Positions 28,550 through 52,696 of a DNA stretch of 64,000 bases are shown here, piece by piece. The notes under the pieces are model-generated. The model was given only the letters and a program-made list of their open reading frames with translations, was not told where the DNA came from and ran no database searches. Where the stretch lies: IMG/VR virus record IMGVR_UViG_3300045988_176782, positions 103,279-167,278 of that record; one strand, 5' to 3'. A program made the translations under genes and the position numbers. The stretch is from a virus. Position 1 is the first letter of the stretch. Each line of letters opens with the position of its first letter.

Positions 28550-29428
28550 GTGGGAAGCGGAAATTGGACCTCAATGGCTTATACCTCTAAAATGGCAGAG
28601 AGAGGTATTAAGACTACACTTAATTCTGCAACTATGTCTGCCGTTGCTGACCTTAGTAGTATATCAACTTTACAATATTATACTCAACGCACTATTAGCG
28701 ACAGACTTAATCCATATCAAGTAATGCGTGAATGTGTAGATTCAAGTGAGCATCCTAATACAATTCCGGTGCTCCTTGCACTTGACGTAACTGGGTCAAT
28801 GGGCCAAACAGCAAATGCTTGCGCCGCCAAGCTAAACGAAATTATGGAACTACTTTATCGTCAAATTACAGATGTTGAATTTATGATTTGTGCTCTTGGC
28901 GACCTTTCTTATGATTCTGCACCTTTTCAAGCAGGTCAGTTTGAAAGTGATATTCGTATTTCTGACCAATTAGACTTAGTTTATTTTGAAGCTGGTGGCG
29001 GTGGTAATCGCTTTGAGAGTTATACATTGCCTTGGTATTTTGGGCTACATAATACTTCTCTTGATTGTTGGAAACGCAATAAGAAGGGTATTATTATTAC
29101 GATGGGCGATGAACCTTTGAATCCATACATGCCTCATCTAGAGTTAAATGTTTGCCTTGGTTGCCATGAGCAATCAGATATTAATACTAAAGAATTGTAT
29201 CAAGCCGCACGAGAAAAGTTTGATATTTATCATCTTTCCATTGACGAAAGAACTAGCTCTTATAATTATCATAAAAATGATGCAGATAAGATTTGGCGGC
29301 AAGTTTTAGGTGAAAATTATCGTGTAACTAATCTTGATAACCTATCTCAAACTATTTCTGATATTATTATTAATGCAAAAACCGATATGAATACTGTCGT
29401 ATCTTCCGCTGACGGTATTAGTTGGTAA
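28550..29428 (+). CDS. von Willebrand factor A (vWA) domain protein
   Basis: MIDAS-like LALDVTGSMG; downstream ...IIITMGDEP; GTG start after AAGGAG. Confidence 0.65.
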   Translation: MGSGNWTSMAYTSKMAERGIKTTLNSATMSAVADLSSISTLQYYTQRTISDRLNPYQVMRECVDSSEHPNTIPVLLALDVTGSMGQTANACAAKLNEIMELLYRQITDVEFMICALGDLSYDSAPFQAGQFESDIRISDQLDLVYFEAGGGGNRFESYTLPWYFGLHNTSLDCWKRNKKGIIITMGDEPLNPYMPHLELNVCLGCHEQSDINTKELYQAAREKFDIYHLSIDERTSSYNYHKNDADKIWRQVLGENYRVTNLDNLSQTISDIIINAKTDMNTVVSSADGISW

Positions 29429-29441
29429 GAAAGGAGAAAGT

Positions 29442-30575
29442 ATGAAGCGTTTTCAGGCAGTAATAGATTGCGGTTTTGGTGACGCAGGAAAAGGCTTAGT
29501 TTCTCGTTGGCTTGCAAAGCAAGCATTTGAGCGTAAAGAAAAAACTTTAACTGTATTTTTTAGTGGCGGTTGCCAACGCGCCCATACCACTATTGAAGGC
29601 GTTTTTCATACTTTACCTGCTGGGTTATTTTTTGACAGTGATATTCTATATAGCGAAATGTTTGTCATTGACCCTATCGCTATTTATTTAGAATATGAAA
29701 GTTGGAAGCAAAGTTTCGGGCCATTTATTGAACCAAAACTTTATGTAAGCCCACATTGTCGTGTGGTTACTCCTTTTGATGTCTGGAATAATCGTCTAAA
29801 AGAAACTCGTCGTGGCGCGCAAAAACATGGCAGTTGCGGTATGGGCATTTTTGAAACCGTATTTAGAGATAAGAGTTTATTTGAATTAAAAGCCAGAGAC
29901 CTTTCCAACCCTTGGAAACTTTGGGAACAACTAAAGAAAATTGAAGAACTTTATAGCAATTCTTGCAGTGATATGGTCTATAATGCCCACAACTTTATGA
30001 AGGCCGCGGAATGGTTTACTAAAAATGTAGAGCAATTTGAAACATATGAAGTATTAAAAAAATATGATACCATTATTTTTGAAGGAAGCCAAGGTTTGTT
30101 GCTTTCTCAAACTAATGTGGATTTCTTTCCATACTTAACTCCTGCCTCTACCGGTGTTGATAATATTGAACATTGGTTCAATTTAGGCGCGGCGGAAGAA
30201 AAAGAAATCTACTATGTTTCTCGCTCTTATATGACACGACACGGTGCTGGGCCTTTTCCAACAGAATGTAAGAAGAAAGATATTAATCCCACAATTGTTG
30301 ATTCTACTAATATTCCTAATAAATGGCAAAATAATTTGCGTTTTGGATACTATGATGTAAAACTTATTGGTGATGCTATTGTTAAGGATACTTGTAGAAT
30401 TACGAACAATAAGGTAAAATTTAATATGGTATTTACGCAACTTAACTATACTAATGGCAAAGTAAGATGCGGCAAGAATGACGATTTGGATATTAATAAT
30501 GATTTATTTTTCTTTCTCAATTTTGACCATCTATATGGTTCTTGGGATAAAGAAAATGTAGAAAGGATTATGTAA
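29442..30575 (+). CDS. adenylosuccinate-synthetase-family enzyme, short phage type (PurZ-like candidate)
   Basis: GFGDAGKGLV (cf. PurA GDEGKGK), GSCGMGIFET..RDK (cf. GIGPAY.DK), EGSQGLLLS (cf. EGAQG.LLD), YMTRHGAGPFPTE (cf. TRVG.GPFPTE). 377 aa, shorter than cellular PurA. Confidence 0.7.
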   Translation: MKRFQAVIDCGFGDAGKGLVSRWLAKQAFERKEKTLTVFFSGGCQRAHTTIEGVFHTLPAGLFFDSDILYSEMFVIDPIAIYLEYESWKQSFGPFIEPKLYVSPHCRVVTPFDVWNNRLKETRRGAQKHGSCGMGIFETVFRDKSLFELKARDLSNPWKLWEQLKKIEELYSNSCSDMVYNAHNFMKAAEWFTKNVEQFETYEVLKKYDTIIFEGSQGLLLSQTNVDFFPYLTPASTGVDNIEHWFNLGAAEEKEIYYVSRSYMTRHGAGPFPTECKKKDINPTIVDSTNIPNKWQNNLRFGYYDVKLIGDAIVKDTCRITNNKVKFNMVFTQLNYTNGKVRCGKNDDLDINNDLFFFLNFDHLYGSWDKENVERIM

Positions 30576-36465: not shown

Positions 36466-37119
36466 ATGTCTAAACAGCAAATCCCAATCAATGACCTTTT
36501 ACAATATTTGGATGAACAAGAAGAAAATAATACTATTTCTTGTGGCTGGACAATTATTGATTATATTTATGGCCATTATAATTTATTAAGTAAAAGAAAT
36601 ATACACACTCCAACGGCCTGGATTTTTTCTAACTGGTGTTTTGGAAACCATGGAACAATTTCAGAATACACTATCTTTATGCCCGGTATGTTAGTAAGAA
36701 AGCCAGGTTTATTTGGCGTTATACACGAAGGGAAAAATCTTCATAAACGAGAACAAACTTCCAATCTTTGGGTCTATTATACAGATACAAAATTTGGAAC
36801 AATTCTTGATGTTCCTTTTTACGCGCCGGAATGGGAACAATGGGGAACAATGAGCCAGATTTATGATTATTCTATTTATAAGCCTCAAAAGAATTTTTAT
36901 ATGTTAGGTAAGCGCAAACTCTCCATTGGAGACCATGGACTGGATGTTTTAATTTTGCAAATTGCACTTTTAAATTTTGGAGAATAGGTAAAGGTAAATG
37001 ATGATTATGATTTTGCCACTAAAACCGCTATTGAAAATATTTAGAAGTGTTTTTCTTTACCTGTTAATGGTATTGTGGATATTGATGATAATTTATTATC
37101 TTACTTACATAAGGAGTAA
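36466..37119 (+). CDS. cell-wall-associated protein with C-terminal PG_binding_1 domain; two in-frame TAG (36985, 37042)
   Basis: GGAGGG RBS. C-terminus GDHGLDVLILQIALLNFGE*VKVNDDYDFATKTAIENI*KCFSLPVNGIVD matches the peptidoglycan-binding repeat (FQ column = TAG). Confidence 0.65.
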
Positions 37120-37121
37120 AT

Positions 37122-37754
37122 ATGAATATAACAGTTAAGTTATATAATGATAAAAATATTAAATTCTATGGCTCTAATCAAATTACAATAGATTTAGAGG
37201 AATATTTGGTTGGATGTGTCGCGGCAGAAATAGGAAATGCACCACTTGAAGCTTGTAAGTCTTAGGCTGTGGCAAGCAGAACTTTTGCTCTAAATGCAAT
37301 TAAAAGTAAAGGTTATATCACAGATAAAAGTTCTTCTGACCAAGCTTTCAGAAGTGAGCGTTTAACGGGTTATCCTAATGTAATTTAGGCCGTTAAAGAT
37401 ACCGAAGGAGAAGTTTTATATTACAATGATAAACTCGCTAAAGCCTATTACTCTGCTTCTAATGGCGGCTATATGATTAGTGCAAAAACACGATGGGGTG
37501 GCGACCTGCCTTATTCTGTAAGTGGCGTTGATAAATACGATGATGGTAAAGGCAATGGCCACGGAGTTTAGTTGAGTTAGATTGGCGCGAAAAATCGTGC
37601 AAAAGCCGGTTTTGAATATAAGTAGATTTTAAGTTTTTATTATCCTGGGACAAATATTCATAAAATTGAAGAACAATCATATGAAATTAAAATCCCAATA
37701 ACTTCTGAATTATATAAAAATCTCTCAACTGCTGAGGTTGAAATGAGGAGGTGA
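37122..37754 (+). CDS. SpoIID/LytB-family lytic enzyme; five in-frame TAG
   Basis: LEEYLVGCVAAEIGNAPLEACKS*AVASRTFAL (cf. EEYL.GVV..EM....EALKAQAVAARTYA), YSASNGG, GHGV*LS*IGA (cf. GHGVGMSQ.GA), YK*ILSFYYPG. Confidence 0.8.
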
Positions 37755-37762
37755 TGCCTCTT

Positions 37763-38562
37763 ATGACTACAAACGAACAAAAAATTATAAATTGGGCAGA
37801 GTCCAAAGTCGGTTGTGGTTATGTATCGTTTGGGGAGCAACAGGATATGTATTAACAAAAACGAAGTTGCAAGAGTTAATCGCTCAGTACCCTCAATATG
37901 TTTCTGAATCAAAAAATAGTAAGTATCTTGGAAAGGCTGTATATGATTGCGCGTCGCTGGTTCGTTATGCTATGAAACAAATTGGCATTTCTATGGTAAG
38001 CGGCGCAACCAGCCAATGGAAGAAAACCAAATGGGCTCGTAAAGGCACAATTGATTAGCTTCCTAAAGATTAGGTTGCTTGCCTGTATCGTTGGACAGGC
38101 TCAGTTATGCAACATACTGGCATCTATCTTGGCAATGGCTATGTAATTGACGCCCGTGGTAGTAGTGCTGGAGTTATTAAGTCTAAGCTTTCTTCTTATC
38201 CTTGGACCCACTTTGGGCAGCCGCAAGGACTAATTAAAAAAAAACAAACTAACGAGGTGATAAGCGTGAATTATCAAGCAAAAGTAGTAGCAGACAGTGG
38301 CTCAACAGTTCGTATGCGTTCTGCTCCTTCTAAAGAAGCTAGTGTTTCTGCCACCATTGCTCTTGGGGCAATTGTTGATGTTGTTGAAGAAGCAGAAGGT
38401 TGGTGCGGCATTGTATATAATGGGCAGAAAGGCTATATGATGAGCCAATTCCTTGAAAAAACTAAAAGCGAGGAGGGGTTATATTATGTCCGAATTAAAT
38501 GCGGAAGTCAAAGTGAAGCAGAACAATTAGCAAACCTCTTACGACAAGCAACAACAAACTGA
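37763..38562 (+). CDS. NlpC/P60-type endolysin with C-terminal SH3b; needs a frame change near 37826-37832; two in-frame TAG (38056, 38071)
   Basis: AGGAGG RBS and ATG 37763 give MTTNEQKIINWAESKVGCGYVSF, stopping at 37853. Frame -1 continues WGATGYV...YDCASLVRYAMKQIGI...HTGIYLGNGYVIDA and an SH3b domain (ORFs 37792-38058 and 38107-38562). Confidence 0.65.
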
Positions 38563-39279: not shown

Positions 39280-39301
39280 GAAAATTTTATAGAATTAAAT
39301 T

Positions 39302-39330
39302 TTGACAAAAATAAAAATTTAATCTATAAT
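39302..39330 (+). promoter_or_regulatory. promoter TTGACA-N17-TATAAT driving the suppressor-tRNA transcript
   Basis: -35 at 39302-07, -10 at 39325-30. Confidence 0.7.
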
Positions 39331-39463
39331 ATATACAGAAAGTGAGAGAGAAATCTTTCACCAGACTGGCGATAGGAGTGGTGCTTATGAAACACGCTTT
39401 TACTCTGACTGGAGATAAAACTCCACCTCGCTATAAAGGGGAGAAGTAATTCTCCCCATACGA

Positions 39464-39553
39464 TGGCCCTTAGTTGAATGGTGACAACAGCTGACTCTAA
39501 ATCAGTAAGTGGGGTTGACCCCGCAGGTCTTGGTTCGAATCCAAGAGGGCTAA
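39464..39553 (+). tRNA. suppressor tRNA, anticodon CUA (reads UAG), class II (long variable arm), no encoded CCA
   Basis: Acceptor TGGCCCT/AGGGCTA (U1-A72, G2-U71). D stem GTTG/CAAC. Anticodon stem GCTGA/TCAGT with loop CT-CTA-AA (CTA 39497-99). 22-nt variable region with GGGG-TTGA-CCCC hairpin. T arm CTTGG-TTCGAAT-CCAAG. Discriminator A. Confidence 0.8.
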
Positions 39554-39607
39554 GGTATCAAATGGTCTGCCTTCTCGTGGCGATACTGACTGAAATAACG
39601 AAAGGCC
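39554..39607 (+). ncRNA. HDV-like (theta-type) self-cleaving ribozyme candidate abutting the tRNA 3' end
   Basis: P1 GGTATC/GATACT with G1-U. P2 GGTCT/AGGCC. P3 GCC/GGC with L3 TTCTCGT. J4/2 CGAA. The string ATGGTC..GCCT.CTCG.TGGC is close to the genomic HDV ribozyme. Confidence 0.65.
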
Positions 39608-39700
39608 TTTACAATGAAAGGGAGCATTAGAGTAATTAACTAATGAGTAATGTGCCCCATACACAAGCTTTCATATTGTTTATAATATGGGGTGAATTTT

Positions 39701-40537
39701 ATGGGATATATTTATAAAATTACTAATGATATTAATGGAAAAGTTTATATTGGTAAAACATTAAATACGGTTGAAGCAAGATGGAAAGAACATTGTTATG
39801 ATAAAGACCGGAGAAAAGTAGAAAATCGTCCGCTTTATTAGGCAATGAATAAATATGGTCTTCAGCATTTTTCTATTGAGACTGTAGAAGAATGTAAAAC
39901 TAATTTAGAAGAACGAGAAGTTTATTGGATTAAATATTATAATTCTTATATTGGTTGGCCAAATAGCAATGGTTATAACGCTACTTTAGGTGGAGATGGA
40001 AAACAATATATTAATTATGATATGATTCGTGAATTAGCAAATACAGAAAAAACTTAGGTTGAAATTGCTGCTATTGTTGGATGTAATGTTGATACTGTGG
40101 CAAAAGTTTATTTATAGGATAATCAAGAAAATTATAATTATAATAAACGGATTAGTATCGCTGTTTATCAGAAAGATAAAGATGGTAATATTATTGCAGA
40201 GTATCCAACAATAAAATCCGCCGCAGAAGCAACCTTAACTAGTCCAAGTCATATTGGACAATGTTGTGCTGGGAAACGAAAAACTTGTGGTGGTTATTAT
40301 TGGGAATATGTTAATACTAAAGAAGGTTAGACACGGCGAGCAATTAGTAATTAGCCTAAAGTAAATATCCCGCGTGAAATATTAAAATCATTAATAAGAG
40401 AACATCCTATGGAAGAAATTGGCCGTATATATGAATGTTCTGCAGCATCAATTAGACGATGTTGCGAACGGCTAAATCTTCCACGAACTAAAAAAGAAAT
40501 CAATTCTTATTCTGATGAAGAATGGTTTAAAATATAA
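39701..40537 (+). CDS. GIY-YIG homing endonuclease with C-terminal DNA-binding modules; five in-frame TAG
   Basis: MGYIYKITNDINGKVYIGKT...RPLY*AMNKYG...REVYWIKYYNS...GYNATLGG, then NUMOD/IENR-like CGGYYWEY and an HTH-like tail. ORF 39845-40057 is in the same frame. Confidence 0.8.
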
Positions 40538-40610
40538 AGTTGTTATGGTGTGAAAATCCAACCCATCAAGCCTCTTAATAATGCTCAAACCGATGGGAGT
40601 TTCATAGCTT

Positions 40611-40681
40611 AAGACGCATACAGCCAATTATTAATGTAAGTTTTTATTAGAAATAAAATAATACAAATAATTCGCGTCTTG
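40611..40681 (+). repeat. AAGAC..GTCTT element copy (E1)
   Basis: AAGACGC-ATACAGCCAAT...GCGTCTT-G followed by T-rich sequence. Confidence 0.6.
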
Positions 40682-40708
40682 TATTCATTTTCTTCTTTTC
40701 TTTTTTAA

Positions 40709-40773
40709 AAGACATATACAGCAAAAGATTTTACATCGCATAATAGTTGGCTGATTACCTACAATGTGTCTTG
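40709..40773 (+). repeat. AAGAC..GTCTT element copy (E2)
   Basis: AAGACAT-ATACAGCAAAA...GTGTCTT-G. Confidence 0.6.
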
Positions 40774-40781
40774 AAAAAAAT

Positions 40782-40810
40782 TTGACAAAAATAAAAAATT
40801 AAATTATAAT
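40782..40810 (+). promoter_or_regulatory. promoter TTGACA-N17-TATAAT driving a non-coding transcript
   Basis: -35 at 40782-87, -10 at 40805-10. Confidence 0.7.
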
Positions 40811-40816: not shown

Positions 40817-41425
40817 ATAATAAAGAAAAGATATTTTTCTTTACTATATGATACCTCGGTGAAGAGCATTTGGCCAATGTGCCGAGAACAAACGGAAGAT
40901 AGCCAGCTCCATATGATGGATACATTATATGCCTGAGCCGCGAAAACAGTGATGTTTAGCGATAGGAGAAAAGACTCCAATATCAAGTTTGTGTGCTTTG
41001 TATTTCGCAATTTAACGCATAATTTCTCTGGAGAACACAATAGAAAGCAGGATGAATAGTCCTGCCGAATCCAAGGCGCCGTTAGCTGGTGACTGTCGGG
41101 GAAAAGATACGGCCTTGGAAACAACCACAAGTTCTTTTGTGATGAAACACAGAAATGTGATATAACAGAGGTTTGTAGTCTGAGTAGCTCAACACAGCGA
41201 ACAAAAAGATGATACAAATTGGCTATTGTTTCTAATTTGCTGAATGGCTTGGGTGAAAAGTGCGAGTAGTCAATCTCGTTAGAGCGTTGTTTGGATAAAG
41301 AAGTCAAGGAGTAGCTAACTTGGCTCAGCCTTTATCTTCTCTATGGCGGAATAAGATTGAAGAAATCACAAAGTAGGGCGAAGGTCCATCAGTTAGTAGA
41401 GAAAAATATCTTTTCTTTTTTTTAT
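40817..41425 (+). ncRNA. large (about 600 nt) structured RNA closed by a 25-bp terminal helix (ROOL/GOLLD-class candidate)
   Basis: 40822-40846 AAAGAAAAGATATTTTTCTTTACTA pairs with 41394-41418 TAGTAGAGAAAAATATCTTTTCTTT (one mismatch), followed by a T-run. No sense ORF. Many internal helices, e.g. CCAAGGC...GCCTTGG and GCAGGA..TCCTGC. Confidence 0.65.
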
Positions 41426-41655: not shown

Positions 41656-41781
41656 ATGGAATGGATTTTAGGAATAGGTTGTTTGGCTTTTTTGTTTGTG
41701 TTGTATAAGCCGAATATTGAAAGAATGATTTACAGCATTAAAGATTGGATTGAGAAAGGAAATAAAGAAAATGACATTTGA
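41656..41781 (+). CDS. small membrane protein (41 aa)
   Basis: AAGGAAG RBS; MEWILGIGCLAFLFVLY. Confidence 0.4.
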   Translation: MEWILGIGCLAFLFVLYKPNIERMIYSIKDWIEKGNKENDI

Positions 41782-42220
41782 AACACTCCAGCAAGAAATG
41801 TATTCTGCTATGAAGTCCGGAGATAAATTTCGTAAAGAAGTTATTTCTGGTCTTATTGCTGACATTAAGCGCGTAGCTATTGATAAAAATTGTCGTGATA
41901 ATATTACTGAAGAAGTCGTAAATACAGTTCTTCTAAAAAGTCGTAAGATGGCACAAGAAATGATTGATACTTGTCCTGAATCTCGTCTTGACCTTCTTGA
42001 ACAATATAAACAAAACGCCGTAATTATGGACGAGTATGTTCCTAAGCTTATTACAGACACAAACGAAATTGCAGCGATTATTAGTCAACTTTTAGTTAAG
42101 TTTAATGTTGAACCTGTCAAAGCTAATATGGGTAAGATTATGAAACTTTGTAAGGAAAACCTTAATGGCAAAGTTGATATGAAAATTGTAAGTAATATTG
42201 TAAAATCTATTTTAGTCTAA
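41771..42220 (+). CDS. GatB/YqeY-domain protein
   Basis: MTFETLQQEMYSAMKSGDKFRKEVISGLIADIKR...ITEEVVNTVLLKS.K...E is the typical YqeY layout. Confidence 0.65.
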   Translation: MTFETLQQEMYSAMKSGDKFRKEVISGLIADIKRVAIDKNCRDNITEEVVNTVLLKSRKMAQEMIDTCPESRLDLLEQYKQNAVIMDEYVPKLITDTNEIAAIISQLLVKFNVEPVKANMGKIMKLCKENLNGKVDMKIVSNIVKSILV

Positions 42221-42236: not shown

Positions 42237-43565
42237 ATGTCTGAACATGTAGGTTATGTTGTAAAAATTAATTCATTGCGGCCTCATTCTAATGCTGACC
42301 GTCTTCAAATTGCTACTATTTTTGACTCTAATGTTATTGTTAGTCTTGATACCCATCTTGATGACATTGGCGTGTATTTTCCTTCTGATATTCAGCTCTC
42401 TAAGGAATTTTGTAAAGTAAATGACCTTGTTCGTCGTAAAGATGAAAATGGCAATCCTGCAGGTGGCTATCTTGACCCAAATAAGCGTAATATTCGTCCG
42501 TTGAAGTTGCGCGGTGAAAAAAGTGATGGTCTATATCTGCCCATTACTTGTATGATGGAGTTCTGTCCTATTTCTGACCTTAAGGTTGGCGACACTATTG
42601 GTGTTGTAAATGGGCACGAAATTTGTAAGAAGTATATTCCCCATCGCACGAAGGCATACCATTATACTGAAAAAGTAAGGAAGCAAAAGGTTAATTTTGC
42701 TCCTACCTTTTTTGAGCATTGCGATACCGCTCAACTTGCATACAACCTTGAAGCTTTCCGTGCAGGAGATGTTGTAGAGCTAACTCTTAAAATGCACGGG
42801 ACCAGTGCGAGAATGGGCTATCTGCCTTTGCTGCAACCTCGGACTTTGCTAGATAAAATTCTTCGTCGCACTCGCAAAACTTATGGAAATGTTATTGGCA
42901 CTCGCCGCGTTGTATTGGATGAAACTCATACTGGTGGTTTTTATGAGGACAATGCTTTCCGACGCCATATTGCTAAAAAGGTTGAAGGAAAACTCCATCG
43001 TGGAGAAACTATTTATGGAGAAATTGTAGGCTTTCAAGGTCCCAATGGCGCGCCTATTATGTCTTCTGTGAAAAACTCTAAAATTTCCGATAAAGCATTC
43101 ACGAAGCAATATGGTGAAGAAACTGTATTCTCTTATGATTGTAATGCTGCGAATGGTTATGAAGATGAACATCCTTGTTGTGAATTATATGTTTATCGTA
43201 TGACTATGGTAAATGATGACGGCGATGTGGTAGATTACTCTCCTGCGCAAATCCGTTATCGTTGTGAGCAAATGGGAGTTAAAGTTGTTCCTCAATTTGA
43301 AGTATTCGTAATTCCTCAAGATGAACCCCATCCTGGTGAATATGTAGTACGTAAAGTTGAAGAATACTATGACGGTCCTGACCCTATTGGTAAAACCCAT
43401 GTACGCGAAGGCGTTGTTGCTCGTATTTTGAATCGGAATAATTTTGCGGTTTATAAAATGAAGAATTGGAACTTCAAATGCCTTGAGGGTATTGTTAAGG
43501 ATGAAGCGGCAGAACCAGATATGGAAGAAGCGCAAGAAGAACTAGTGGAGGAGCAAACTGAATGA
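42237..43565 (+). CDS. RNA ligase with N-terminal OB/tRNA-binding-like domain (Rnl5-like architecture)
   Basis: N-terminus VVKINSLRPHSNADRLQIATI (tRNA_bind-like). Nucleotidyl-transferase motif I LKMHGTS (KxHG). Confidence 0.65.
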   Translation: MSEHVGYVVKINSLRPHSNADRLQIATIFDSNVIVSLDTHLDDIGVYFPSDIQLSKEFCKVNDLVRRKDENGNPAGGYLDPNKRNIRPLKLRGEKSDGLYLPITCMMEFCPISDLKVGDTIGVVNGHEICKKYIPHRTKAYHYTEKVRKQKVNFAPTFFEHCDTAQLAYNLEAFRAGDVVELTLKMHGTSARMGYLPLLQPRTLLDKILRRTRKTYGNVIGTRRVVLDETHTGGFYEDNAFRRHIAKKVEGKLHRGETIYGEIVGFQGPNGAPIMSSVKNSKISDKAFTKQYGEETVFSYDCNAANGYEDEHPCCELYVYRMTMVNDDGDVVDYSPAQIRYRCEQMGVKVVPQFEVFVIPQDEPHPGEYVVRKVEEYYDGPDPIGKTHVREGVVARILNRNNFAVYKMKNWNFKCLEGIVKDEAAEPDMEEAQEELVEEQTE

Positions 43566-46603: not shown

Positions 46604-47164
46604 ATGACGCCTAAAGAATTGGGTCAATTATTTGTTGATTTAATAGAAATTGATGATAATGGTTGTTCTCCTCAAATTTATATGAAAGATTTAGTTGAAA
46701 TTGAACCAGAATTTCGTACTACTAATGGTTCTCAATGGAGCCGAGCTAATGGTTGGCTAGGAAAACAGTATTTAATTCAAAAAACTTATAAATCTGGACG
46801 AGTTGATTCAATTCAATTAGTAGGCAAAAATACTTCAAATGAAAATCATTCTGTTCCTGCAGAAGTATATGCTTATTATAAAGGAAAGCCTTGTGTTTTC
46901 ACAGGAACAACAAACAATATTGAAATTGACCATAAAAATGCTCGTTATAATAATTCAGAATATACAATGGCCGATTTTCAGCCTGTATGCAAAATGATGA
47001 ATGATATTAAACGAGAAATTTGTAAAAAATGTCGTCTAAACAAACTTAGGCCAAAAGCATCTTCTCTTGGCTTTTTAAAAGATTTTATTTCTGGCGACGA
47101 AAAATCTGAAACTTGTCAAGGATGTTATTATTATGACCCAATTGAATTTAGAAGAAACCTATAA
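46604..47164 (+). CDS. HNH/beta-beta-alpha-Me nuclease-like protein (candidate restriction endonuclease)
   Basis: NNIEIDHKNARYNN plus Cys pairs CKKC...CQGC. Overlaps the methyltransferase gene. Confidence 0.45.
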   Translation: MTPKELGQLFVDLIEIDDNGCSPQIYMKDLVEIEPEFRTTNGSQWSRANGWLGKQYLIQKTYKSGRVDSIQLVGKNTSNENHSVPAEVYAYYKGKPCVFTGTTNNIEIDHKNARYNNSEYTMADFQPVCKMMNDIKREICKKCRLNKLRPKASSLGFLKDFISGDEKSETCQGCYYYDPIEFRRNL

Positions 47165-47861
47165 AAATCAAAGCTGTTTTGAGTTCCTTCCTACTATTCC
47201 TTCTAAATCCATTAATCTTATTCTAATTGACCCGCCATATGAAATTTCTCGCGCCACTAATTTTCAAAGTGGAGAAGAAACTGGAACTGATACTGACCGT
47301 TTTCGTATCTCTATGGATTTTGGCGATTGGGATAAGAATTTTTTTGGCTTAGAAAAGGTTTTTAAAGAAGCACAGCGGATTTTGGTTGATGGCGGCACAA
47401 TGATTTGTTTTTATGATTTATGGAAAATTGAAACAATTAAACAATATTATGAAAATAATAAGTTTAAACAAATTCGCTTTCTTGAATGGATTAAAACCAA
47501 TCCTGTGCCAATTAATAGCAAAATCAACTATTTAACTAACACTCGTGAAGTTGCGGTTTTGGGAATAAAAAAATCTAAACCAACTTTTAATAGTTCATAT
47601 GATAAGGGAATTTATGAATATCCTATTTGTCATGAAAAAGGCCGCTTCCATCCCACACAAAAGCCATTAGAGTTAATGGAAGCTTTGATTCTAAAACATT
47701 CTAATGAAGGCGACACTGTTTTAGATTGTTTTGCAGGAAGTGGCACAACTGGTGTTGCTGCGATTAAAAACAATCGGAAATTTATTGGTTGTGAAATTTC
47801 TCCAGAATATTATTCTCAATCTTTGGAACGACTAAAAAATTTGACAAAAATGAAAAATTAA
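47133..47861 (+). CDS. DNA methyltransferase, beta-class (N6A or N4C)
   Basis: LILIDPPYE (motif IV) near the N-terminus, and VLDCFAGSGTTGVAA (motif I) near the C-terminus. Confidence 0.8.
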   Translation: MTQLNLEETYKNQSCFEFLPTIPSKSINLILIDPPYEISRATNFQSGEETGTDTDRFRISMDFGDWDKNFFGLEKVFKEAQRILVDGGTMICFYDLWKIETIKQYYENNKFKQIRFLEWIKTNPVPINSKINYLTNTREVAVLGIKKSKPTFNSSYDKGIYEYPICHEKGRFHPTQKPLELMEALILKHSNEGDTVLDCFAGSGTTGVAAIKNNRKFIGCEISPEYYSQSLERLKNLTKMKN

Positions 47862-47950: not shown

Positions 47951-48024
47951 AGGCGAATAAGATAATGGTAGTCCCGCGCTCTCCAAAAGCGTTCGTCCCT
48001 GTTCAAATCGGGGTTCGCCTGCCA
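47951..48024 (+). tRNA. tRNA-Trp (CCA anticodon), CCA end encoded
   Basis: Acceptor AGGCGAA/TTCGCCT. Anticodon stem GCGCT/AGCGT, loop CT-CCA-AA. T arm CCCTG-TTCAAAT-CGGGG. Confidence 0.75.
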
Positions 48025-48029
48025 AAATA

Positions 48030-48108
48030 AAGACGCATACAGCTAATATTTTGGTTAAAAAGTTTTCTACAAAAAAGCTTAAGAGATTCAATTTCTCAAT
48101 GCGTCTTG
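48030..48108 (+). repeat. AAGAC..GTCTT element copy (E4)
   Basis: AAGACGC-ATACAGCTAAT...GCGTCTT-G-TTTTT. Confidence 0.6.
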
Positions 48109-48115
48109 TTTTTAT

Positions 48116-48190
48116 GGCTCGTTAGCCTAGTGGTTTAGGCAGTAGACTGTTAATCTACCTAGGCTGGTTCAATTCCAGCACGAGCCTCCA
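48116..48190 (+). tRNA. tRNA-Asn (GTT)
   Basis: Acceptor GGCTCGT/ACGAGCC. D arm GCCT..AGGC. Loop CT-GTT-AA. T arm GCTGG-TTCAATT-CCAGC. CCA encoded. Confidence 0.85.
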
Positions 48191-48412
48191 TTAATTCAAT
48201 AATACGCGTGAGGCCGCGGTGCATATTGGCAAGAACAAGTATCATGAACTCAGCGCCCGAAGGAGAGGTAAATATCGGTTAACTACCGAGGCGCACCTAT
48301 GTGATGAATTGGACCCTTTCAAGTTGAAAGACACCTACGAGGGAGACGACGGAATAATTGGCCGCCTTTAAACGCTTGTCCATGAAAATGGCACTATTAT
48401 TGAATATTTAAA
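48191..48412 (+). ncRNA. structured RNA of about 220 nt closed by an 11-bp helix
   Basis: ATTCAATAATA (48194-204) pairs with TATTATTGAAT (48395-405). The interior is visibly GC-richer than the genome, with several complementary segments. No ORF. Confidence 0.45.
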
Positions 48413-48624
48413 AAACTCTGTCCTCAACGTGGATCGGAAAGTAATTTGCCTATTATTATAGGTAAGTCCACGACCTGATAATAGGTAAATTATGAAGTTT
48501 GTAACAGTGTTCTTCAAAATAACTTCTGAACAGCGGCATAAGAGCCACGCCAGAGGAGCGGATTGGTGTGAAAGATAGAGAGTTGCAATTATCTATTTAT
48601 TCACAGGCCATAAAGAAGTTATAT

Positions 48625-48740
48625 GCCAAGGTAGCTTAATTGGTAGAGCAATAGAGTAAAAAGGAATCTTGTAAAAGATTTTGGCCGCGATTGTTTATAT
48701 TTGGGTCTGTGTGTTCTCGGTTCAAGTCCGAGCCTTGGCT
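48625..48740 (+). ncRNA. tRNA-like gene with a 43-nt insertion in the anticodon loop
   Basis: Canonical acceptor GCCAAGG/CCTTGGC, D arm GCTT-AATTGGTA-GAGC, anticodon stem ATAGA/TCTGT, 5-nt variable region and T arm CTCGG-TTCAAGT-CCGAG. The loop is 50 nt and contains the hairpin AATCTT-GTAA-AAGATT. The 3' loop part ATTTGGG would give anticodon TTG. Confidence 0.45.
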
Positions 48741-48747
48741 TTACCAT

Positions 48748-48824
48748 TGCGGAGTAGAGAAGTGGTTTATCTCGTCAGCCTCATGAGCTGAAAAACGGAG
48801 GTTCAAATCCTCCCTCCGCAACCA
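48748..48824 (+). tRNA. tRNA with CAT anticodon (Met or Ile2)
   Basis: Acceptor TGCGGAG/CTCCGCA. Stem TCAGC/GCTGA, loop CT-CAT-GA. T arm GGAGG-TTCAAAT-CCTCC. CCA encoded. Confidence 0.8.
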
Positions 48825-48892
48825 ATAGAACTTTGAAAAACTTTATCCTTTGCCAAGTTTACCATAAAGAGGGTTTAAAGGCGAGGTCATGA

Positions 48893-48967
48893 TGCTCAAT
48901 AGCTTAACGGTAGAGCAGCGATTTCATAAGTCGTTAGATATAGGTTCAAATCCTATTTGAGCAACCA
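48893..48967 (+). tRNA. second tRNA with CAT anticodon (Met/fMet/Ile2)
   Basis: Acceptor TGCTCAA/TTGAGCA. D arm GCTT..GAGC. Loop TT-CAT-AA. T arm ATAGG-TTCAAAT-CCTAT. CCA encoded. Confidence 0.8.
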
Positions 48968-49093
48968 AGCGCTACACAGATTCCCACTAAACTACCACTG
49001 GCGTCTCAGACCCAATAGGAGAGCGGCGATATGTAGCTTGCGGAAGCGCTATATAAGAAGCGAAGTAAGTGGTGGGCGGTTTACCGCCCGATA

Positions 49094-49167
49094 TGCGGGT
49101 GTAGCTCAATGGTAGAATTCTAGCCTTCCAAGCTGGTTACGTGGGTTCGATTCCCATTACTCGCTCC
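49094..49167 (+). tRNA. tRNA-Gly (TCC)
   Basis: Acceptor GCGGGTG/TACTCGC. Stem CTAGC/GCTGG, loop CT-TCC-AA. T arm GTGGG-TTCGATT-CCCAT. CCA encoded. Confidence 0.8.
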
Positions 49168-49431
49168 AATTGATTTCAAGTAGAACAAGTTAGCTTCTTG
49201 TGAAAGAAATCTGCGCTATGACTACGGAAGACAGCGAGTCAGGGTTTGTAGAATTTTCCATACAATTCTACCGTGAACCAGTTCAATTACTGTTGCTCTG
49301 CTCTGCGACTGCGTGAAGGTCGGTTAAAAAGGTGAAGCGGGTTATTACTGCTTCCAAGAGGAGTAAGCGGGAGATGGGCGCAAAGTCTGCGGTGAGTCTA
49401 AATCCGTGCTAGCAAAATAGACCAATATTAT
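49168..49431 (+). ncRNA. structured inter-tRNA spacer (264 nt)
   Basis: No ORF. Perfect hairpins GTAGAATT..AATTCTAC and GATTTC..GAAATC. GC-richer than the flanks. Confidence 0.35.
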
Positions 49432-49506
49432 GGCTCCGTAGTCAAGCGGTTAAGACGCTGGGTTTTCATCCCAGAGACGCGAGTTCGACTCTCGCCGGAG
49501 CTACCA
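49432..49506 (+). tRNA. tRNA-Glu (TTC)
   Basis: Acceptor GGCTCCG/CGGAGCT. Stem CTGGG/CCCAG, loop TT-TTC-AT. T arm GCGAG-TTCGACT-CTCGC. CCA encoded. Confidence 0.8.
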
Positions 49507-49511
49507 TAGTA

Positions 49512-49611
49512 AAGACACAGGTTAAACAGCAATACTTATAGTGGTTAATAAAATTTTTGTTGTATAAAATTTTTAATGGGTTCAAATCCCACAAAAGAAC
49601 CCTGCGTCTTG
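49512..49611 (+). repeat. AAGAC..GTCTT element copy with inserted T-arm-like remnant (E5)
   Basis: AAGACAC...AACAGCAATAC...TGGGTTCAAATCCCA...GCGTCTT-G-TTTTTT. Confidence 0.5.
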
Positions 49612-49617
49612 TTTTTT

Positions 49618-49708
49618 GGAAAGGTGGCTGAGTTGGTTTAAAGTGACAGATTGCTAATCTGTTGAGGGATTTTCCCCTCCGGAGGTTCAAATCCTCTCCT
49701 TTCCGCCA
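49618..49708 (+). tRNA. tRNA-Ser (GCT), class II
   Basis: Acceptor GGAAAGG/CCTTTCC. Stem ACAGA/TCTGT, loop TT-GCT-AA. Long variable arm. T arm GGAGG-TTCAAAT-CCTCT. CCA encoded. Confidence 0.85.
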
Positions 49709-49711
49709 TAT

Positions 49712-49790
49712 GTGCGCGAGTAACCGAATTGGCATAGGTACTGGTCTAAGAAGCCAGGTTTTATGAGTTTAAGTCTCACCTTGCACACCA
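49712..49790 (+). tRNA. atypical tRNA, anticodon AAG (Leu codon CUU) but short variable region
   Basis: Stem CTGGT/GCCAG, loop CT-AAG-AA. Acceptor GTGCGCG/CTTGCAC has one mismatch. Irregular D arm. CCA encoded. Confidence 0.45.
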
Positions 49791-49793
49791 TTT

Positions 49794-49853
49794 AAGATAC
49801 TAATAACGATTATTATTTTCTTTACAGTTTTTAAAGAACAAGAATGTGTCTTG
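49794..49853 (+). repeat. AAGAC..GTCTT element, divergent copy (E6)
   Basis: AAGATAC...GTGTCTT-G. Confidence 0.4.
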
Positions 49854-49858
49854 ATTAT

Positions 49859-49933
49859 GGGGCAGTGACGCAATGGTAGCGTGTTAGCTTTGCAAGCTGA
49901 AAGTTGAGGGTTCAAATCCCTTCTGCTCCACCA
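49859..49933 (+). tRNA. tRNA-Ala (TGC)
   Basis: Acceptor GGGGCAG/CTGCTCC. D arm ACGC..GCGT. Loop TT-TGC-AA. T arm GAGGG-TTCAAAT-CCCTT. CCA encoded. Confidence 0.85.
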
Positions 49934-50053
49934 GACGTGCCAGTTTCTCCGATGGCCGTATAACTTAGAAATAAGTGAAGCAGAAAGTAGCTATTTTGCA
50001 TCGGAAAGCAAGTCTCCTTATTCCTTGCCATACATAAAAGAATAAGGACGCGT

Positions 50054-50130
50054 GCGCTGATAGCCCAATTGGCAGAGGCAATAGACTTAGGATCTATTCA
50101 GTGAGAGTTCAAATCTCTCTTGGCGTACCA
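50054..50130 (+). tRNA. tRNA with TAG anticodon (Leu CUA/CUG) but class I short variable region
   Basis: Acceptor GCGCTGA/TTGGCGT (3 wobbles). Stem ATAGA/TCTAT, loop CT-TAG-GA. T arm GAGAG-TTCAAAT-CTCTC. A73, CCA encoded. Confidence 0.6.
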
Positions 50131-50133
50131 TTT

Positions 50134-50198
50134 AAGACAGTTACAGCAAATCCTCAAAAGATGCGATTGTTAAAATTACGTTATTATTTACTGTCTTG
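50134..50198 (+). repeat. AAGAC..GTCTT element copy (E7)
   Basis: AAGACAG-TTACAGCAAAT...CTGTCTT-G. Confidence 0.6.
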
Positions 50199-50204
50199 CT
50201 ATTT

Positions 50205-50268
50205 CGGGATATAGTGCGATGTGCTGATAACATGCAAGTCGCGGATTCAAATCCCGCCCCTGTAACCA
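50205..50268 (+). ncRNA. truncated tRNA-like element (CUGAUAA loop, T arm, ..ACCA tail)
   Basis: Loop CT-GAT-AA at 50224-30. T-arm-like GCGGA-TTCAAAT-CCCGC. No convincing 5' acceptor strand or D arm. Alternative long hairpin CGGGAT...ATCCCG. Confidence 0.3.
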
Positions 50269-50269
50269 T

Positions 50270-50345
50270 CGGGGAATACGTCAATTGGCAGACGGCTTGC
50301 TTTGGGAGCAAGCAGCTCTCAGTTCAAATCTGAGTTCTCCGACCA
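50270..50345 (+). tRNA. tRNA-Pro (TGG)
   Basis: Acceptor CGGGGAA/TTCTCCG. D arm CGTC..GACG. Stem CTTGC/GCAAG, loop TT-TGG-GA. T arm CTCAG-TTCAAAT-CTGAG. CCA encoded. Confidence 0.85.
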
Positions 50346-50398
50346 GAGGAATTTATAATCCTTTTTCATAACAAATGGGAGAATTTCTCCCATCTCCT

Positions 50399-50468
50399 TG
50401 GCCGCAAGTAGAGAAATGTTATCTCACCGTTTTAACGGAGTAGGCGGTTCAATTCCGCCCTCGGCCAT
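50399..50468 (+). ncRNA. aberrant tRNA-like element with a 6-nt TTTTAA anticodon-type loop
   Basis: Good T arm GGCGG-TTCAATT-CCGCC and 6-bp acceptor TGGCCG/CGGCCA. The anticodon-type stem CACCG/CGGAG (one mismatch) encloses only TTTTAA, and the variable region is too short. Confidence 0.3.
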
Positions 50469-50598
50469 TAGTCGCCCTGGCACAGGGAGAAATGTGTTGC
50501 TCGGTAGGAGGGCATCCGCGGAGAATATACTATCCTACACAAAACAAAATGGGACTGATGCAGGTCCCACTTATAAGGGGAAGTTCCCCTTTTAATAT

Positions 50599-50684
50599 GG
50601 AGGAGTGGCGGAATGACGAGACGCAGTTGACTCAAAATCAACCACGAAGAAACACTGAGAGTTCAAATCTCTTCTCCTCTACCA
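50599..50684 (+). tRNA. tRNA-Leu (CAA), class II
   Basis: Acceptor GGAGGAG/CTCCTCT. Stem GTTGA/TCAAC, loop CT-CAA-AA. Long variable arm. T arm GAGAG-TTCAAAT-CTCTT. A73, CCA encoded. Confidence 0.85.
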
Positions 50685-50690
50685 GGCCTT

Positions 50691-50765
50691 AAGACAGATC
50701 AGCAATTTATTTAGATGAATGCATTTTTCACCTCCAAGGTAGGCTCTTGGTTGTATCCTGTCTTG
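50691..50765 (+). repeat. AAGAC..GTCTT element copy (E8)
   Basis: AAGACAG-ATCAGCAATTT...CTGTCTT-G-TTTTT. Confidence 0.55.
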
Positions 50766-52691: not shown

Positions 52692-52696
52692 TATTT

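What the first reader, a model, noticed from the sequence alone, without database searches (positions are those of the whole stretch)
39554..39607. Minimal HDV-like (theta-type) ribozyme fold starting at the first base after the suppressor tRNA
The sequence GGTATC AAAT GGTCT GCC TTCTCGT GGC GATACT GA CTGAAATAA CGAA AGGCC threads onto the HDV double pseudoknot.
- P1 is 39554-59 with 39582-87: 6 bp, with a G1-U wobble at the cleavage site.
- P2 is 39564-68 with 39603-07.
- P3 is GCC/GGC, with a 7-nt pyrimidine-rich L3.
- A possible 2-bp P1.1 pairs GA 39588-89 with TC in L3.
- P4 is reduced to a 9-nt linker.
- J4/2 is CGAA (39599-39602), which puts a C at the position of the catalytic C75.

The string ATGGTC..GCCT.CTCG.TGGC is almost identical to the genomic HDV ribozyme (AUGGUCCCAGCCUCCUCGCUGGC). 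Cleavage 5' of G39554 would leave the tRNA ending exactly at its discriminator base, ready for CCA addition. HDV-like ribozymes downstream of phage suppressor tRNAs have been reported, so the class is known. This P4-less 54-nt instance still deserves testing.
Basis: partly seen in the sequence, partly recalled or inferred. Interest (0 to 1): 0.85.

Follow-up and report, generated by a model that had tools for sequence, protein, structure and literature searches.

The report
Self-cleaving ribozyme trailing a suppressor tRNA
Directly after a phage stop-codon-suppressor tRNA sits a 56-base HDV-like "theta-type" self-cleaving ribozyme that should cut the tRNA free at its last base; this class is known, and this exact sequence is already listed in a published catalogue.

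Summary
Window 39554-39609 threads onto the minimal HDV-like double pseudoknot: P1 6 bp with a G1·U wobble, P2, P3, a 2-bp P1.1, a 9-nt L4 in place of P4, and J4/2 CGAA. It starts at the first base after the discriminator of a tRNA(CUA).

Chance is excluded:
- A descriptor scan found 0-0.07 hits per shuffled window.
- Two covariance models built from 19 other theta or minimal ribozymes each pick this site as the only significant hit in 64 kb (31.2 and 37.5 bits).

Two metagenomic relatives share the unusual 9-nt L4 but carry a completely different, still complementary, P2.

It is not new. The identical 56-nt string is row 1236 (MGV-GENOME-0377505) of Supplementary Data 4 of Kienbeck et al. 2024.

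The context fits their model:
- TAG reads as Gln (9 of 9 orthologous codons).
- The recoded lysis genes lie just upstream.
- A DRB0094-like RNA ligase lies downstream.
- This is the only one of 15 tRNAs here with no encoded CCA.

One thing is unexpected. Two ~93-97% identical phages keep the same promoter and leader but hold different amber suppressors in this slot. One is split by a group I intron and the other is a non-canonical cloverleaf.

The parts
39302..39330 (+). Consensus sigma-70-type promoter (TTGACA, 17 nt, TATAAT) that drives the leader-tRNA-ribozyme-endonuclease unit
   Evidence: 12 of 12 match. Conserved in relatives L144 and L145.
39338..39463 (+). Structured 5' leader of about 126 nt, ending in the hairpin GGGGAGAA-GUAA-UUCUCCCC (39438-39457) 6 nt before the tRNA. 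It contains a 20-codon ORF (39387-39449) with an AGGAG upstream.
   Evidence: MFE -42.2 kcal/mol, z = -4.6, 0 of 200 shuffles as stable. No Rfam family. Conserved in L144 and L145.
39464..39553 (+). Amber suppressor tRNA: anticodon CUA, 19-nt variable arm, U1-A72, G2·U71, discriminator A73, no encoded CCA
   Evidence: ARAGORN. Rfam tRNA 58.9 bits. The 3' flank is compared with the other tRNAs.
39553..39554 (+). Predicted scissile phosphate, between A39553 (discriminator) and G39554 (G1)
   Evidence: Position of G1 in the descriptor and covariance-model alignments. Cleavage itself is inferred.
39554..39559 (+). P1 5' strand, GGUAUC
   Evidence: Pairs with 39582-87. P1 covaries in relatives.
39560..39561 (+). 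J1/2, AA
   Evidence: Published segmentation of the identical sequence.
39562..39568 (+). P2 5' strand, AUGGUCU
   Evidence: Pairs with 39603-09 with one U·U. All 7 pairs show double changes in relatives. L147 and L148 have a different, complementary P2.
39569..39571 (+). P3 5' strand, GCC
   Evidence: Pairs with 39579-81.
39572..39578 (+). L3, U|UC|UCGU. U39573 and C39574 form P1.1 with G39588 and A39589.
   Evidence: Matches the invariant pattern T-(Y/G)C-NCGY of published theta ribozymes.
39579..39581 (+). P3 3' strand, GGC
39582..39587 (+). P1 3' strand, GAUACU. U39587 wobbles with G1.
   Evidence: The G·U at this pair occurs in 18 of 19 and 15 of 15 relatives.
39588..39589 (+). P1.1 3' strand, GA
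39590..39598 (+). L4, CUGAAAUAA: a 9-nt linker in place of P4
   Evidence: The identical L4 is in L147 and L148. It is longer than every L4 (5-8 nt) in about 180 published final-motif rows read.
39599..39602 (+). J4/2, CGAA. C39599 is the predicted catalytic cytosine (C75 equivalent).
   Evidence: The HDV ribozyme has the same CGAA.
39603..39609 (+). P2 3' strand, AGGCCUU
39620..39672 (+). Conserved element of unknown role between the ribozyme and the endonuclease gene (GGGAGC, hairpin, GAGUAAU, GUG-CCCCAUA-CAC, GCUUUC)
   Evidence: Also follows related suppressor tRNAs in L003, L010, L019 and L022. The consensus fold is weak. No Rfam hit.
39701..40537 (+). GIY-YIG homing-endonuclease-like gene with 5 in-frame TAG codons, co-transcribed downstream of the ribozyme
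   Evidence: Pfam GIY-YIG 2e-9 and I-HmuI NUMOD-like. TAG count.
36466..38562 (+). TAG-recoded lysis cassette: PG-binding protein, SpoIID-like protein, NlpC/P60+SH3 protein. These are clients of the suppressor.
42237..43565 (+). RNA ligase-like protein, DRB0094-type, below the family cut-off. Kienbeck et al. report this gene family as 140-fold enriched in theta-ribozyme phages.
   Evidence: PF09414 3.2e-7. TIGR02306 39.8 bits against a cut-off of 151. Enrichment statement.

Best explanation
Window 39554-39609 is a genuine minimal HDV-like (theta-type) self-cleaving ribozyme fused to the 3' end of the phage's amber suppressor tRNA.

Proposed pathway:
1. The unit is transcribed from the consensus promoter at 39302-39330 as leader, tRNA, ribozyme and GIY-YIG mRNA.
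2. The 56 nt fold into the nested double pseudoknot (P1, P1.1, P2, P3, with no P4).
3. C39599, with Mg2+, catalyses attack of the 2'-OH of A39553 on the A39553-G39554 phosphate.
4. This releases the tRNA ending exactly at its discriminator with a 2',3'-cyclic phosphate. The ribozyme, with a 5'-OH, stays on the endonuclease mRNA.
5. RNase P removes the leader. The cyclic phosphate is opened and removed, and CCA is added by a host or phage enzyme.
6. The tRNA is charged, almost certainly with Gln, and reads the in-frame TAG codons of the lysis, structural and endonuclease genes.

Shown here: the fold is present, it is statistically non-random, it resembles the family by covariance model, the helices covary, the junction with the tRNA is exact, no CCA is encoded, and TAG reads as Gln. 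Inferred: the cleavage itself, end healing, CCA addition and charging.
For: - The identical sequence is catalogued as a minimal HDV-like ribozyme.
- Every conserved nucleotide of published theta ribozymes is present.
- Shuffles give at most 0.07 hits per window.
- Covariance models built without this sequence hit only this site, full length, starting at 39554: R1 31.2 bits, E 1e-5; R2 37.5 bits, E 2.4e-6.
- Among 15 sequences retrieved by the P3/L3 core alone, 98.5% of cells pair, against 30-50% when partners are slid. P1 has double changes at 4 of 6 pairs and P2 at 7 of 7.
- L147 and L148 share P1, L3 and the 9-nt L4 but have an unrelated, complementary P2.
- G1 is the base after the discriminator.
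- The other 14 tRNAs of the window all encode CCA and have no ribozyme. This tRNA has neither CCA nor any other visible 3' signal.
- TAG aligns with CAA or CAG in 9 of 9 orthologous positions.
- Recoded lysis genes and a DRB0094-like RNA ligase are adjacent, as reported for theta-ribozyme phages.
- Four family members self-cleave in vitro, and the C-to-U change abolishes cleavage.
Against: - No cleavage data exist for this sequence.
- L4 is 9 nt, one longer than any L4 seen in the final-motif lists.
- It appears only in the list made with the first, less specific motif, whose false-positive rate the authors call high.
- P2 is comparatively weak: 5 bp including a G·U, then a U·U.
- Nested-fold predictions favour an alternative pairing of 39569-77 with 39598-605, and the fold is no more stable than shuffles. 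These programs cannot score pseudoknots.
- Rfam HDV-family models give no hit.
- No CCA-adding enzyme or cyclic phosphodiesterase was found among the window ORFs tested.
- Related suppressor tRNAs manage without a ribozyme.
Confidence: 0.85

Rival explanations
1. A decayed, catalytically dead relic of a theta ribozyme. The tRNA 3' end would then be made by host RNase Z or exonucleases, and the 56 nt would be a passive trailer.
For: - The 9-nt L4 lies outside the range seen in final-motif lists.
- P2 has a U·U mismatch.
- Related CCA-less suppressor tRNAs (L010, L016) have no ribozyme.
- The site was listed only by the low-specificity first motif.
Against: - All invariant core nucleotides, G1·U and the catalytic C are intact.
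- The same L4 recurs in L147 and L148 with a perfectly compensated P2, which indicates selection on this variant.
- The sequence is identical in independent assemblies: MGV, ENA (L143) and L146.
- Published lists include members with P2 mismatches.
Confidence: 0.08
2. The ribozyme mainly serves the downstream mobile gene. It would define a 5'-OH end for the GIY-YIG mRNA, or uncouple that mRNA from the tRNA, much as HDV-like ribozymes process the 5' ends of R2 retrotransposon RNA. Trimming of the tRNA would be a by-product.
For: - The ribozyme remains attached to the endonuclease mRNA after cleavage (anatomy).
- The tRNA, ribozyme and GIY-YIG gene behave as one 1,080-bp replaceable cassette.
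- L147 and L148 carry the same ribozyme subtype with no tRNA upstream.
Against: - Homologous tRNA / element X / GIY-YIG cassettes in L003, L010, L019 and L022 have no ribozyme.
- G1 abuts the discriminator exactly, and this is the only tRNA here lacking CCA.
- The two roles are not mutually exclusive.
Confidence: 0.06
3. A chance resemblance in an AT-rich intergenic spacer, or a simple trailer hairpin or terminator.
For: - The nested MFE is no better than shuffles.
- No Rfam HDV hit.
Against: - 0 of 200 shuffles pass the strict descriptor.
- It is the unique significant hit of both covariance models.
- It registers exactly with the tRNA end.
- There is no T-run and no terminator call.
- The helices covary.
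Confidence: 0.01

Closest known systems
Theta ribozymes: tRNA-associated minimal HDV-like ribozymes of gut Caudoviricetes (Kienbeck et al. 2024, PMC10879173)
   Same: Same architecture and the same conserved nucleotides. The cleavage site lies at the tRNA 3' end. The tRNA is an amber suppressor without CCA. The phage is recoded TAG to Gln. A DRB0094-type RNA ligase is nearby. The identical sequence is in their Supplementary Data 4.
   Different: L4 is 9 nt, against 5-8 nt in every final-motif row read. P2 has a U·U. I could not find it in the truncated copies of the final theta lists. The associated suppressor has a long variable arm.
Minimal HDV-like ribozymes from metagenomes (the drz-Mtgn series, whose motif Kienbeck et al. 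adapted)
   Same: A P4-less double pseudoknot of about 50-60 nt with G1 and a catalytic C in J4/2.
   Different: Those were described without genomic context. Here the context, a tRNA 3' end, is explicit.
Genomic HDV ribozyme
   Same: It shares AUGGUC, GCCU-CUCG-UGGCG and J4/2 CGAA, the G1·U wobble, a 3-bp P3 and a 2-bp P1.1 (one search compared).
   Different: No P4 helix. P1 is 6 bp rather than 7 bp. L3 is 7 nt rather than 8 nt. P1.1 is U-A/C-G rather than two C-G. Rfam HDV-family models do not match.
RNase Z processing of CCA-less bacterial tRNA precursors (established knowledge, e.g. Bacillus subtilis)
   Same: An endonucleolytic cut immediately after the discriminator of a CCA-less tRNA, followed by CCA addition.
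   Different: A protein enzyme acting in trans leaves a 3'-OH. The ribozyme acts in cis and leaves a 2',3'-cyclic phosphate, which needs an extra healing step.
T4 SegB, a GIY-YIG endonuclease encoded in a phage tRNA gene cluster that promotes inheritance of that region (from memory, not checked here)
   Same: A free-standing GIY-YIG gene lies next to a phage tRNA gene. The tRNA region differs between close relatives.
   Different: No evidence here for cleavage specificity or homing. The cassette also carries a ribozyme.

Membership tests
Theta ribozymes (Kienbeck et al. 2024) | Segment architecture: P1 6-7 / J1/2 1-3 / P2 7 / P3 3 / L3 1+2+4 / P3' / P1' / P1.1' 2 / short L4 / J4/2 4-5 / P2' | tested here: met
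Theta ribozymes (Kienbeck et al. 2024) | G at +1, paired (usually G·U) with the last base of the P1 3' strand | tested here: met
   G39554·T39587. G·U in 18 of 19 and 15 of 15 relatives.
Theta ribozymes (Kienbeck et al. 2024) | Catalytic cytosine at the first position of J4/2 | tested here: met
   C39599. My scan also finds a parse with A one base earlier. The paper counts sequences that fit both parses as active.
Theta ribozymes (Kienbeck et al. 2024) | Conserved core nucleotides: P3 RCC/GGY and L3 U-(Y/G)C-NCGY | tested here: met
   GCC-T-TC-TCGT-GGC. Invariant columns of A1 and A2 are all satisfied.
Theta ribozymes (Kienbeck et al. 2024) | L4 length within the final (iv) descriptor | tested here: inconclusive
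   L4 is 9 nt here. All of about 180 final-motif rows read have 5-8 nt. The descriptor file itself is an image and is not held. The sequence was found only in the list from motif (i).
Theta ribozymes (Kienbeck et al. 2024) | Cleavage site within ±5 nt (77% within ±1 nt) of a tRNA 3' end | tested here: met
   Offset 0. The tRNA ends at 39553 by both ARAGORN and Rfam.
Theta ribozymes (Kienbeck et al. 2024) | Sequence-plus-structure similarity to other members | tested here: met
   Models built from 19 other members: 31.2 bits (P1+P3 model) and 37.5 bits (P2+P3 model), each the only significant hit in the window.
Theta ribozymes (Kienbeck et al. 2024) | Mg2+-dependent self-scission, optimal near neutral pH, abolished by C-to-U | not testable with these tools
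   Shown for four other members only.
Theta ribozymes (Kienbeck et al. 2024) | Context: tailed gut phage, usually recoded TAG to Gln when the tRNA is a suppressor | tested here: met
   TAG aligns with CAA or CAG in 9 of 9 positions. The catalogue entry is a Metagenomic Gut Virus genome.
HDV ribozyme and HDV-like families as modelled in Rfam 15 | Match to the family covariance models, which include a P4 helix | tested here: not met
   No HDV-family match at E<=10 in 39400-39720. P4 is replaced by 9 unpaired nt.
Minimal HDV-like ribozymes (first-adaptation motif) | Fits the relaxed minimal descriptor and is listed | tested here: met
   Row 1236, MGV-GENOME-0377505 142832-142887, identical 56 nt.

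The most novel reading that the evidence does not exclude
The ribozyme is one of several interchangeable self-processing gates on the phage's code switch. In one conserved promoter-leader slot, near-identical phages carry:
- a ribozyme-tailed, CCA-less suppressor linked to a GIY-YIG gene (this window);
- a suppressor split by a group I intron (L144);
- a non-canonical cloverleaf suppressor (L145).

On this reading the cassette is moved by the endonuclease. The ribozyme is not merely a substitute for RNase Z. It makes suppressor maturation depend on cyclic-phosphate healing and CCA addition, possibly by phage enzymes such as the nearby RNA ligase-like protein. That dependence would time the read-through of the TAG-laden lysis genes.

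The slot swapping itself is observed. The gating and mobility are conjecture.
Probability: 0.15. Interest if true: 0.65.

Novelty: already known. Interest (0 to 1): 0.35.

Why it matters
As a ribozyme it adds nothing categorical. The class, its link to suppressor tRNAs and this very sequence are published.

Its value is as a well-framed test case.
- It is a slightly out-of-motif variant (9-nt L4, weak P2), and its activity would show how far the theta descriptor can be relaxed.
- It sits in a natural three-allele series. Three phages, 93-97% identical around the locus, differ in whether their amber suppressor carries a ribozyme, a group I intron or neither.
- That series could be used to test the open question raised by Kienbeck et al.: whether theta ribozymes regulate the switch to the alternative genetic code or merely trim tRNAs.

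Tried and rejected
- **Rfam 15.** Gathering thresholds over the whole window, and E<=10 on 39400-39720, gave no HDV-like family.
- **Nested MFE folding.** Folding the ribozyme alone and with its 3' flank gave z about 0.3. This is uninformative for a pseudoknot.
- **Megablast** of 39300-40800 against INPHARED phages gave no match.
- **IMG/VR scan for L4+J4/2 (GACTGAAATAACGAA).** 46 loci, all chance hits in unrelated sequence.
- **IMG/VR scan for CGTGGCN6GACTGAAATAAC.** No match.
- **GTDB genome scan.** One hit in a GC-rich deltaproteobacterial coding region, which is chance, so it gives no host clue.
- **Related suppressor tRNAs found via the anticodon arm.** Most have no ribozyme, so they gave no locus-specific covariation.
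- **First MAFFT alignment of 40 published ribozymes.** It misplaced the J1/2 gap at the 5' end, so I discarded it for modelling.
- **Consensus fold of element X** (39620-39672). Only weak support.
- **Search for a CCA-adding enzyme.** None among the roughly 38 ORFs scanned. Several structural-region ORFs were not scanned, and more than 100 kb of the genome lies outside the window.
- **The exact final theta descriptor** could not be read, because it is a figure.
- **Literature searches** found no report of swapped suppressor slots or intron-split phage suppressors. This is weak negative evidence.

Full report
**1. The observation**

- P1: 39554-59 with 39582-87, six pairs, the outermost being G39554·T39587.
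- P3: GCC with GGC.
- P1.1: T39573 and C39574 of L3 can pair with G39588 and A39589.
- P2: 39564-68 with 39603-07 gives five pairs including one G·T. In the 7-nt register used in the literature (39562-68 with 39603-09), an A-T is added across a T·T mismatch.
- L4: nine unpaired bases replace P4.
- J4/2: CGAA, the same as in the HDV ribozyme.

ARAGORN and the Rfam tRNA model both end a 90-nt tRNA with anticodon CTA at 39553. G1 is therefore the first base after the discriminator. The element is 56 nt rather than 54 nt. Otherwise the description is accurate.

**2. More than chance**

I wrote a descriptor modelled on the published segmentation and scanned both strands. It found this site and one AT/GT-rich hit at 41681 that lacks the L3 signature.

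In 200 dinucleotide-preserving shuffles of the window, the loose descriptor gave 0.07 hits per shuffle. A version that also requires the CG of L3 gave none. That the site also lies exactly at a tRNA end is additional and independent.

**3. Family resemblance tested independently**

Rfam 15 has no match to any HDV-type family here, even at E<=10. Those models expect a P4 helix, so this is not surprising.

I aligned 19 other ribozymes that share the 6|2|7 segment layout: 15 from the supplement of Kienbeck et al. and 4 from IMG/VR. From this alignment I built two covariance models, because a single model cannot hold the pseudoknot.

| Model | Helices | Hit | Score | E-value |
|---|---|---|---|---|
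| R1 | P1+P3 | 39554-39609, full length | 31.2 bits | 1e-5 |
| R2 | P2+P3 | 39554-39609, full length | 37.5 bits | 2.4e-6 |

Nothing else in 64 kb is significant with either model.

**4. It is already catalogued**

Theta ribozymes are minimal HDV-like ribozymes whose cleavage site abuts phage tRNAs. A fifth of those tRNAs are amber suppressors. Four members were shown to self-cleave, and a C-to-U change abolished cleavage (PMC10879173).

Supplementary Data 4 of that paper lists minimal ribozymes found with the first motif adaptation. [quoted passage not shown] This is identical to the window.

I did not find it in the stored, truncated copies of the final theta lists. In about 180 final-motif rows that I read, L4 is 5-8 nt. 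This 9-nt L4 probably falls one base outside the final descriptor. The descriptor is a figure and could not be read, so that point remains open.

**5. Covariation**

*The published set.* It pairs perfectly, but it was selected by a pairing descriptor, so that result is circular.

*IMG/VR scan on the core alone.* A less circular test scanned IMG/VR for the P3-L3-P3' core plus GA (GCCTTCTCGTGGCN6GA). This places no constraint on the P1 5' strand or on P2.
- 25 matches (14 unique sequences) fit the full fold.
- 44 matches lie in unrelated, mostly coding, sequence.

*Metagenome scan.* A scan that also required the start of this L4 returned three loci.
- One is an identical copy of the window locus.
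- L147 and L148 have the same P1, L3, P1.1 and the same nine-base L4, with J4/2 CTAA.
- Their P2 is entirely different yet complementary: TGTGAGA/TCTCACA and AGTGAGA/TCTCACA.

*Counts on the 15-sequence alignment* (this sub-family, including the window):
- 98.5% of cells pair, against 30-50% when the partners are slid.
- 4 of 6 P1 pairs and 7 of 7 P2 pairs show changes on both sides.
- P3 covaries only in the wider set: GCC/GGC, ACC/GGT, ACG/CGT.

The long-L4 form looks like a maintained variant rather than a decayed copy.

**6. Context**

*Recoding.*
- Many long ORFs carry several in-frame TAG codons.
- Nine window TAG codons fall at positions where the orthologue in a close relative has a sense codon. 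All nine are CAA or CAG there.
- Two TAGs of the SpoIID-like protein align with invariant Gln in solved SpoIID structures.
- So TAG reads as Gln.

*Neighbouring genes.*
- The recoded genes immediately upstream are a lysis cassette: PG-binding, SpoIID-like and NlpC/P60+SH3 proteins.
- Downstream lie a GIY-YIG endonuclease gene with five TAGs, an abiF motif and a ROOL RNA with its own consensus promoter.
- Further downstream are a YqeY-like protein and an RNA ligase-like protein. The ligase matches the DRB0094 model weakly, at 39.8 bits against a cut-off of 151.
- Kienbeck et al. report that gene family as 140-fold enriched in theta-ribozyme phages.

*Transcription.* A 12-of-12 sigma-70 promoter lies at 39302-39330. 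No terminator is called between it and the endonuclease gene.

*The CCA contrast.* All 14 other tRNAs of the window encode CCA directly after the discriminator, one of them after two extra bases. None has a ribozyme. The suppressor has no CCA and is the only tRNA with a ribozyme.

**7. Mechanism**

The best-supported reading is the published one.
1. The ribozyme folds co-transcriptionally, and C39599- and Mg2+-dependent transesterification occurs at A39553 | G39554.
2. This frees the tRNA at its discriminator and leaves the ribozyme on the endonuclease mRNA.
3. Established HDV chemistry implies a 2',3'-cyclic phosphate on the tRNA.
4. After RNase P cleavage, healing, CCA addition and charging, the tRNA decodes TAG as Gln.

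All steps after the fold are inferred.

Arguments against activity:
- the unusual L4;
- the weak P2;
- a competing nested fold;
- origin in the low-specificity list.

I put the probability of a genuine, active tRNA-releasing ribozyme at about 0.85.

**8. An unexpected result outside the finding**

The RNA ligase protein led to an identical ENA contig (L143). It also led to two IMG/VR phages, L144 and L145, whose ligase is 94-95% identical.

Their DNA matches the window at 92-97% on both sides of the locus. The match covers the promoter, the whole structured leader (z = -4.6) and the hairpin before the tRNA. Homology stops exactly at the tRNA 5' end (39464/5) and resumes at 40545, just before the abiF motif.

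| Genome | Content of the slot | Evidence |
|---|---|---|
| Window | 1,080 bp: tRNA, ribozyme, element X, GIY-YIG gene | |
| L145 | 91-nt non-canonical cloverleaf: anticodon loop CUCUAAA, 6-bp anticodon stem, 4-bp T stem, CCA end. No tRNA finder calls it. | |
| L144 | long-variable-arm tRNA(CUA) with CCA, split in the anticodon loop by a group I intron (RF00028, 45.9 bits, gathering score 50, E 1e-10, full model) | |

Both relatives have TAG-recoded lysis genes. The three phages therefore carry three different amber suppressors in one slot, and two of them come with a self-processing RNA.

Related tRNA / element X / GIY-YIG cassettes elsewhere lack the ribozyme, and several of them encode CCA. 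This suggests endonuclease-linked replacement of the suppressor gene, reminiscent of T4 SegB (from memory). It also offers a natural comparison for testing whether the ribozyme does more than trim.

I found no report of this in the held literature.

**9. Verdict**

The feature belongs to a known class, and this exact sequence is already published, though not individually tested. Interest in the ribozyme itself is low. The swapped suppressor slot raises it somewhat.

Noticed in passing
window 39464-40544, compared with L144 6989-7342 and L145 7256-7345: Close relatives (92-97% identical flanks, same promoter and leader) hold different amber suppressors in the same slot. L144 has a long-variable-arm tRNA(CUA)+CCA interrupted after CUCU of the anticodon loop by a group I intron (RF00028, 45.9 bits). 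L145 has a 91-nt non-canonical cloverleaf with anticodon CUA and a CCA end that ARAGORN and Rfam do not call..
   Followed up: partly
window 39464-39553 and 47951-53550: The suppressor is the only one of 15 tRNAs with no encoded CCA. The other 14 have CCA right after the discriminator (one has TTACCA) and no ribozyme.
   Followed up: yes
window 39464-39553; L144; L145; L008; L010: TAG reads as Gln (9 of 9 orthologous codons are CAA or CAG), yet the suppressor has a 19-nt variable arm like Leu, Ser or Tyr tRNAs. The 1:72 pair is weak or mismatched in every allele: U1-A72 here, U·U in L145, A·C in L144, L008 and L010. This recalls tRNA-Gln identity rules (from memory).
   Followed up: partly
window 39338-39463: The 126-nt leader between the promoter and the tRNA is strongly structured (-42.2 kcal/mol, z -4.6) and conserved in L144 and L145. 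It matches no Rfam family. It holds a 20-codon ORF (39387-39449) with an AGGAG upstream, whose stop codon sits in the loop of the last hairpin.
   Followed up: partly
window 39620-39672; L003, L010/L020/L028, L019/L024, L022: A conserved element (GGGA(A)GC, variable hairpin, GAGAUAA, hairpin with a CCCYAU loop) always lies between a long-arm suppressor tRNA and a GIY-YIG gene. The hairpin shows compensatory changes, but the consensus fold is weak and there is no Rfam match.
   Followed up: partly
window 39701-40537: A GIY-YIG / NUMOD endonuclease gene with 5 in-frame TAGs lies downstream of the suppressor it depends on. Homologues next to related suppressors also carry TAG: in L010, NGK-TAG-YVG aligns with NGK-CAA-YVG in L019.
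   Followed up: partly
window 40562-40598, 40782-40810, 40831-41406: An abiF RNA motif (49.9 bits) and a full-length ROOL RNA (295.8 bits) with its own perfect consensus promoter lie directly downstream. Both are conserved in L144 and L145.
   Followed up: no
window 41750-42220 and 42237-43565: A YqeY-like protein (PF09424; the fold of the GatB tail that binds tRNA-Gln, from memory) sits next to a DRB0094-like RNA ligase with an N-terminal tRNA-binding-like region. These are possible helpers for suppressor charging or end repair.
   Followed up: no
window 29391-30572: An adenylosuccinate-synthetase-like gene. It scores far below the PurA cut-offs (90 bits against about 400) and matches the PurZ model weakly (36.9 bits). 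It may be a nucleotide-modification gene.
   Followed up: no
window 51387-53239 and 15605-16951: A radical-SAM/SPASM-like maturase (6 TAGs) is followed by a Cys-rich CxxxC-repeat protein (the L143 gene table flags tSAM_targ_Cxxx_rpt). A second radical-SAM-like ORF lies at 15605.
   Followed up: no
L147 about 1165-1225; L148 about 190-245; L104, L110, L113, L118: Ribozymes of the same core subtype that do not follow a tRNA are preceded by a short hairpin and the bases (A)TAT. In L104, L113 and L118 they lie about 200 nt downstream of a tRNA-Leu(TAG).
   Followed up: no
window 48625-48740 and 49714-49787: Two tRNA-model hits that ARAGORN does not call, one of them 116 nt long. They may be tRNAs with insertions.
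   Followed up: no
window 57980-59233; 46604-47861; 54037-55572: Three further gene observations: a second GIY-YIG / group-I-intron-endonuclease-like ORF; an IceA-like nuclease with an N6/N4 DNA methylase; and a DUF2828+DUF7788 protein.
   Followed up: no
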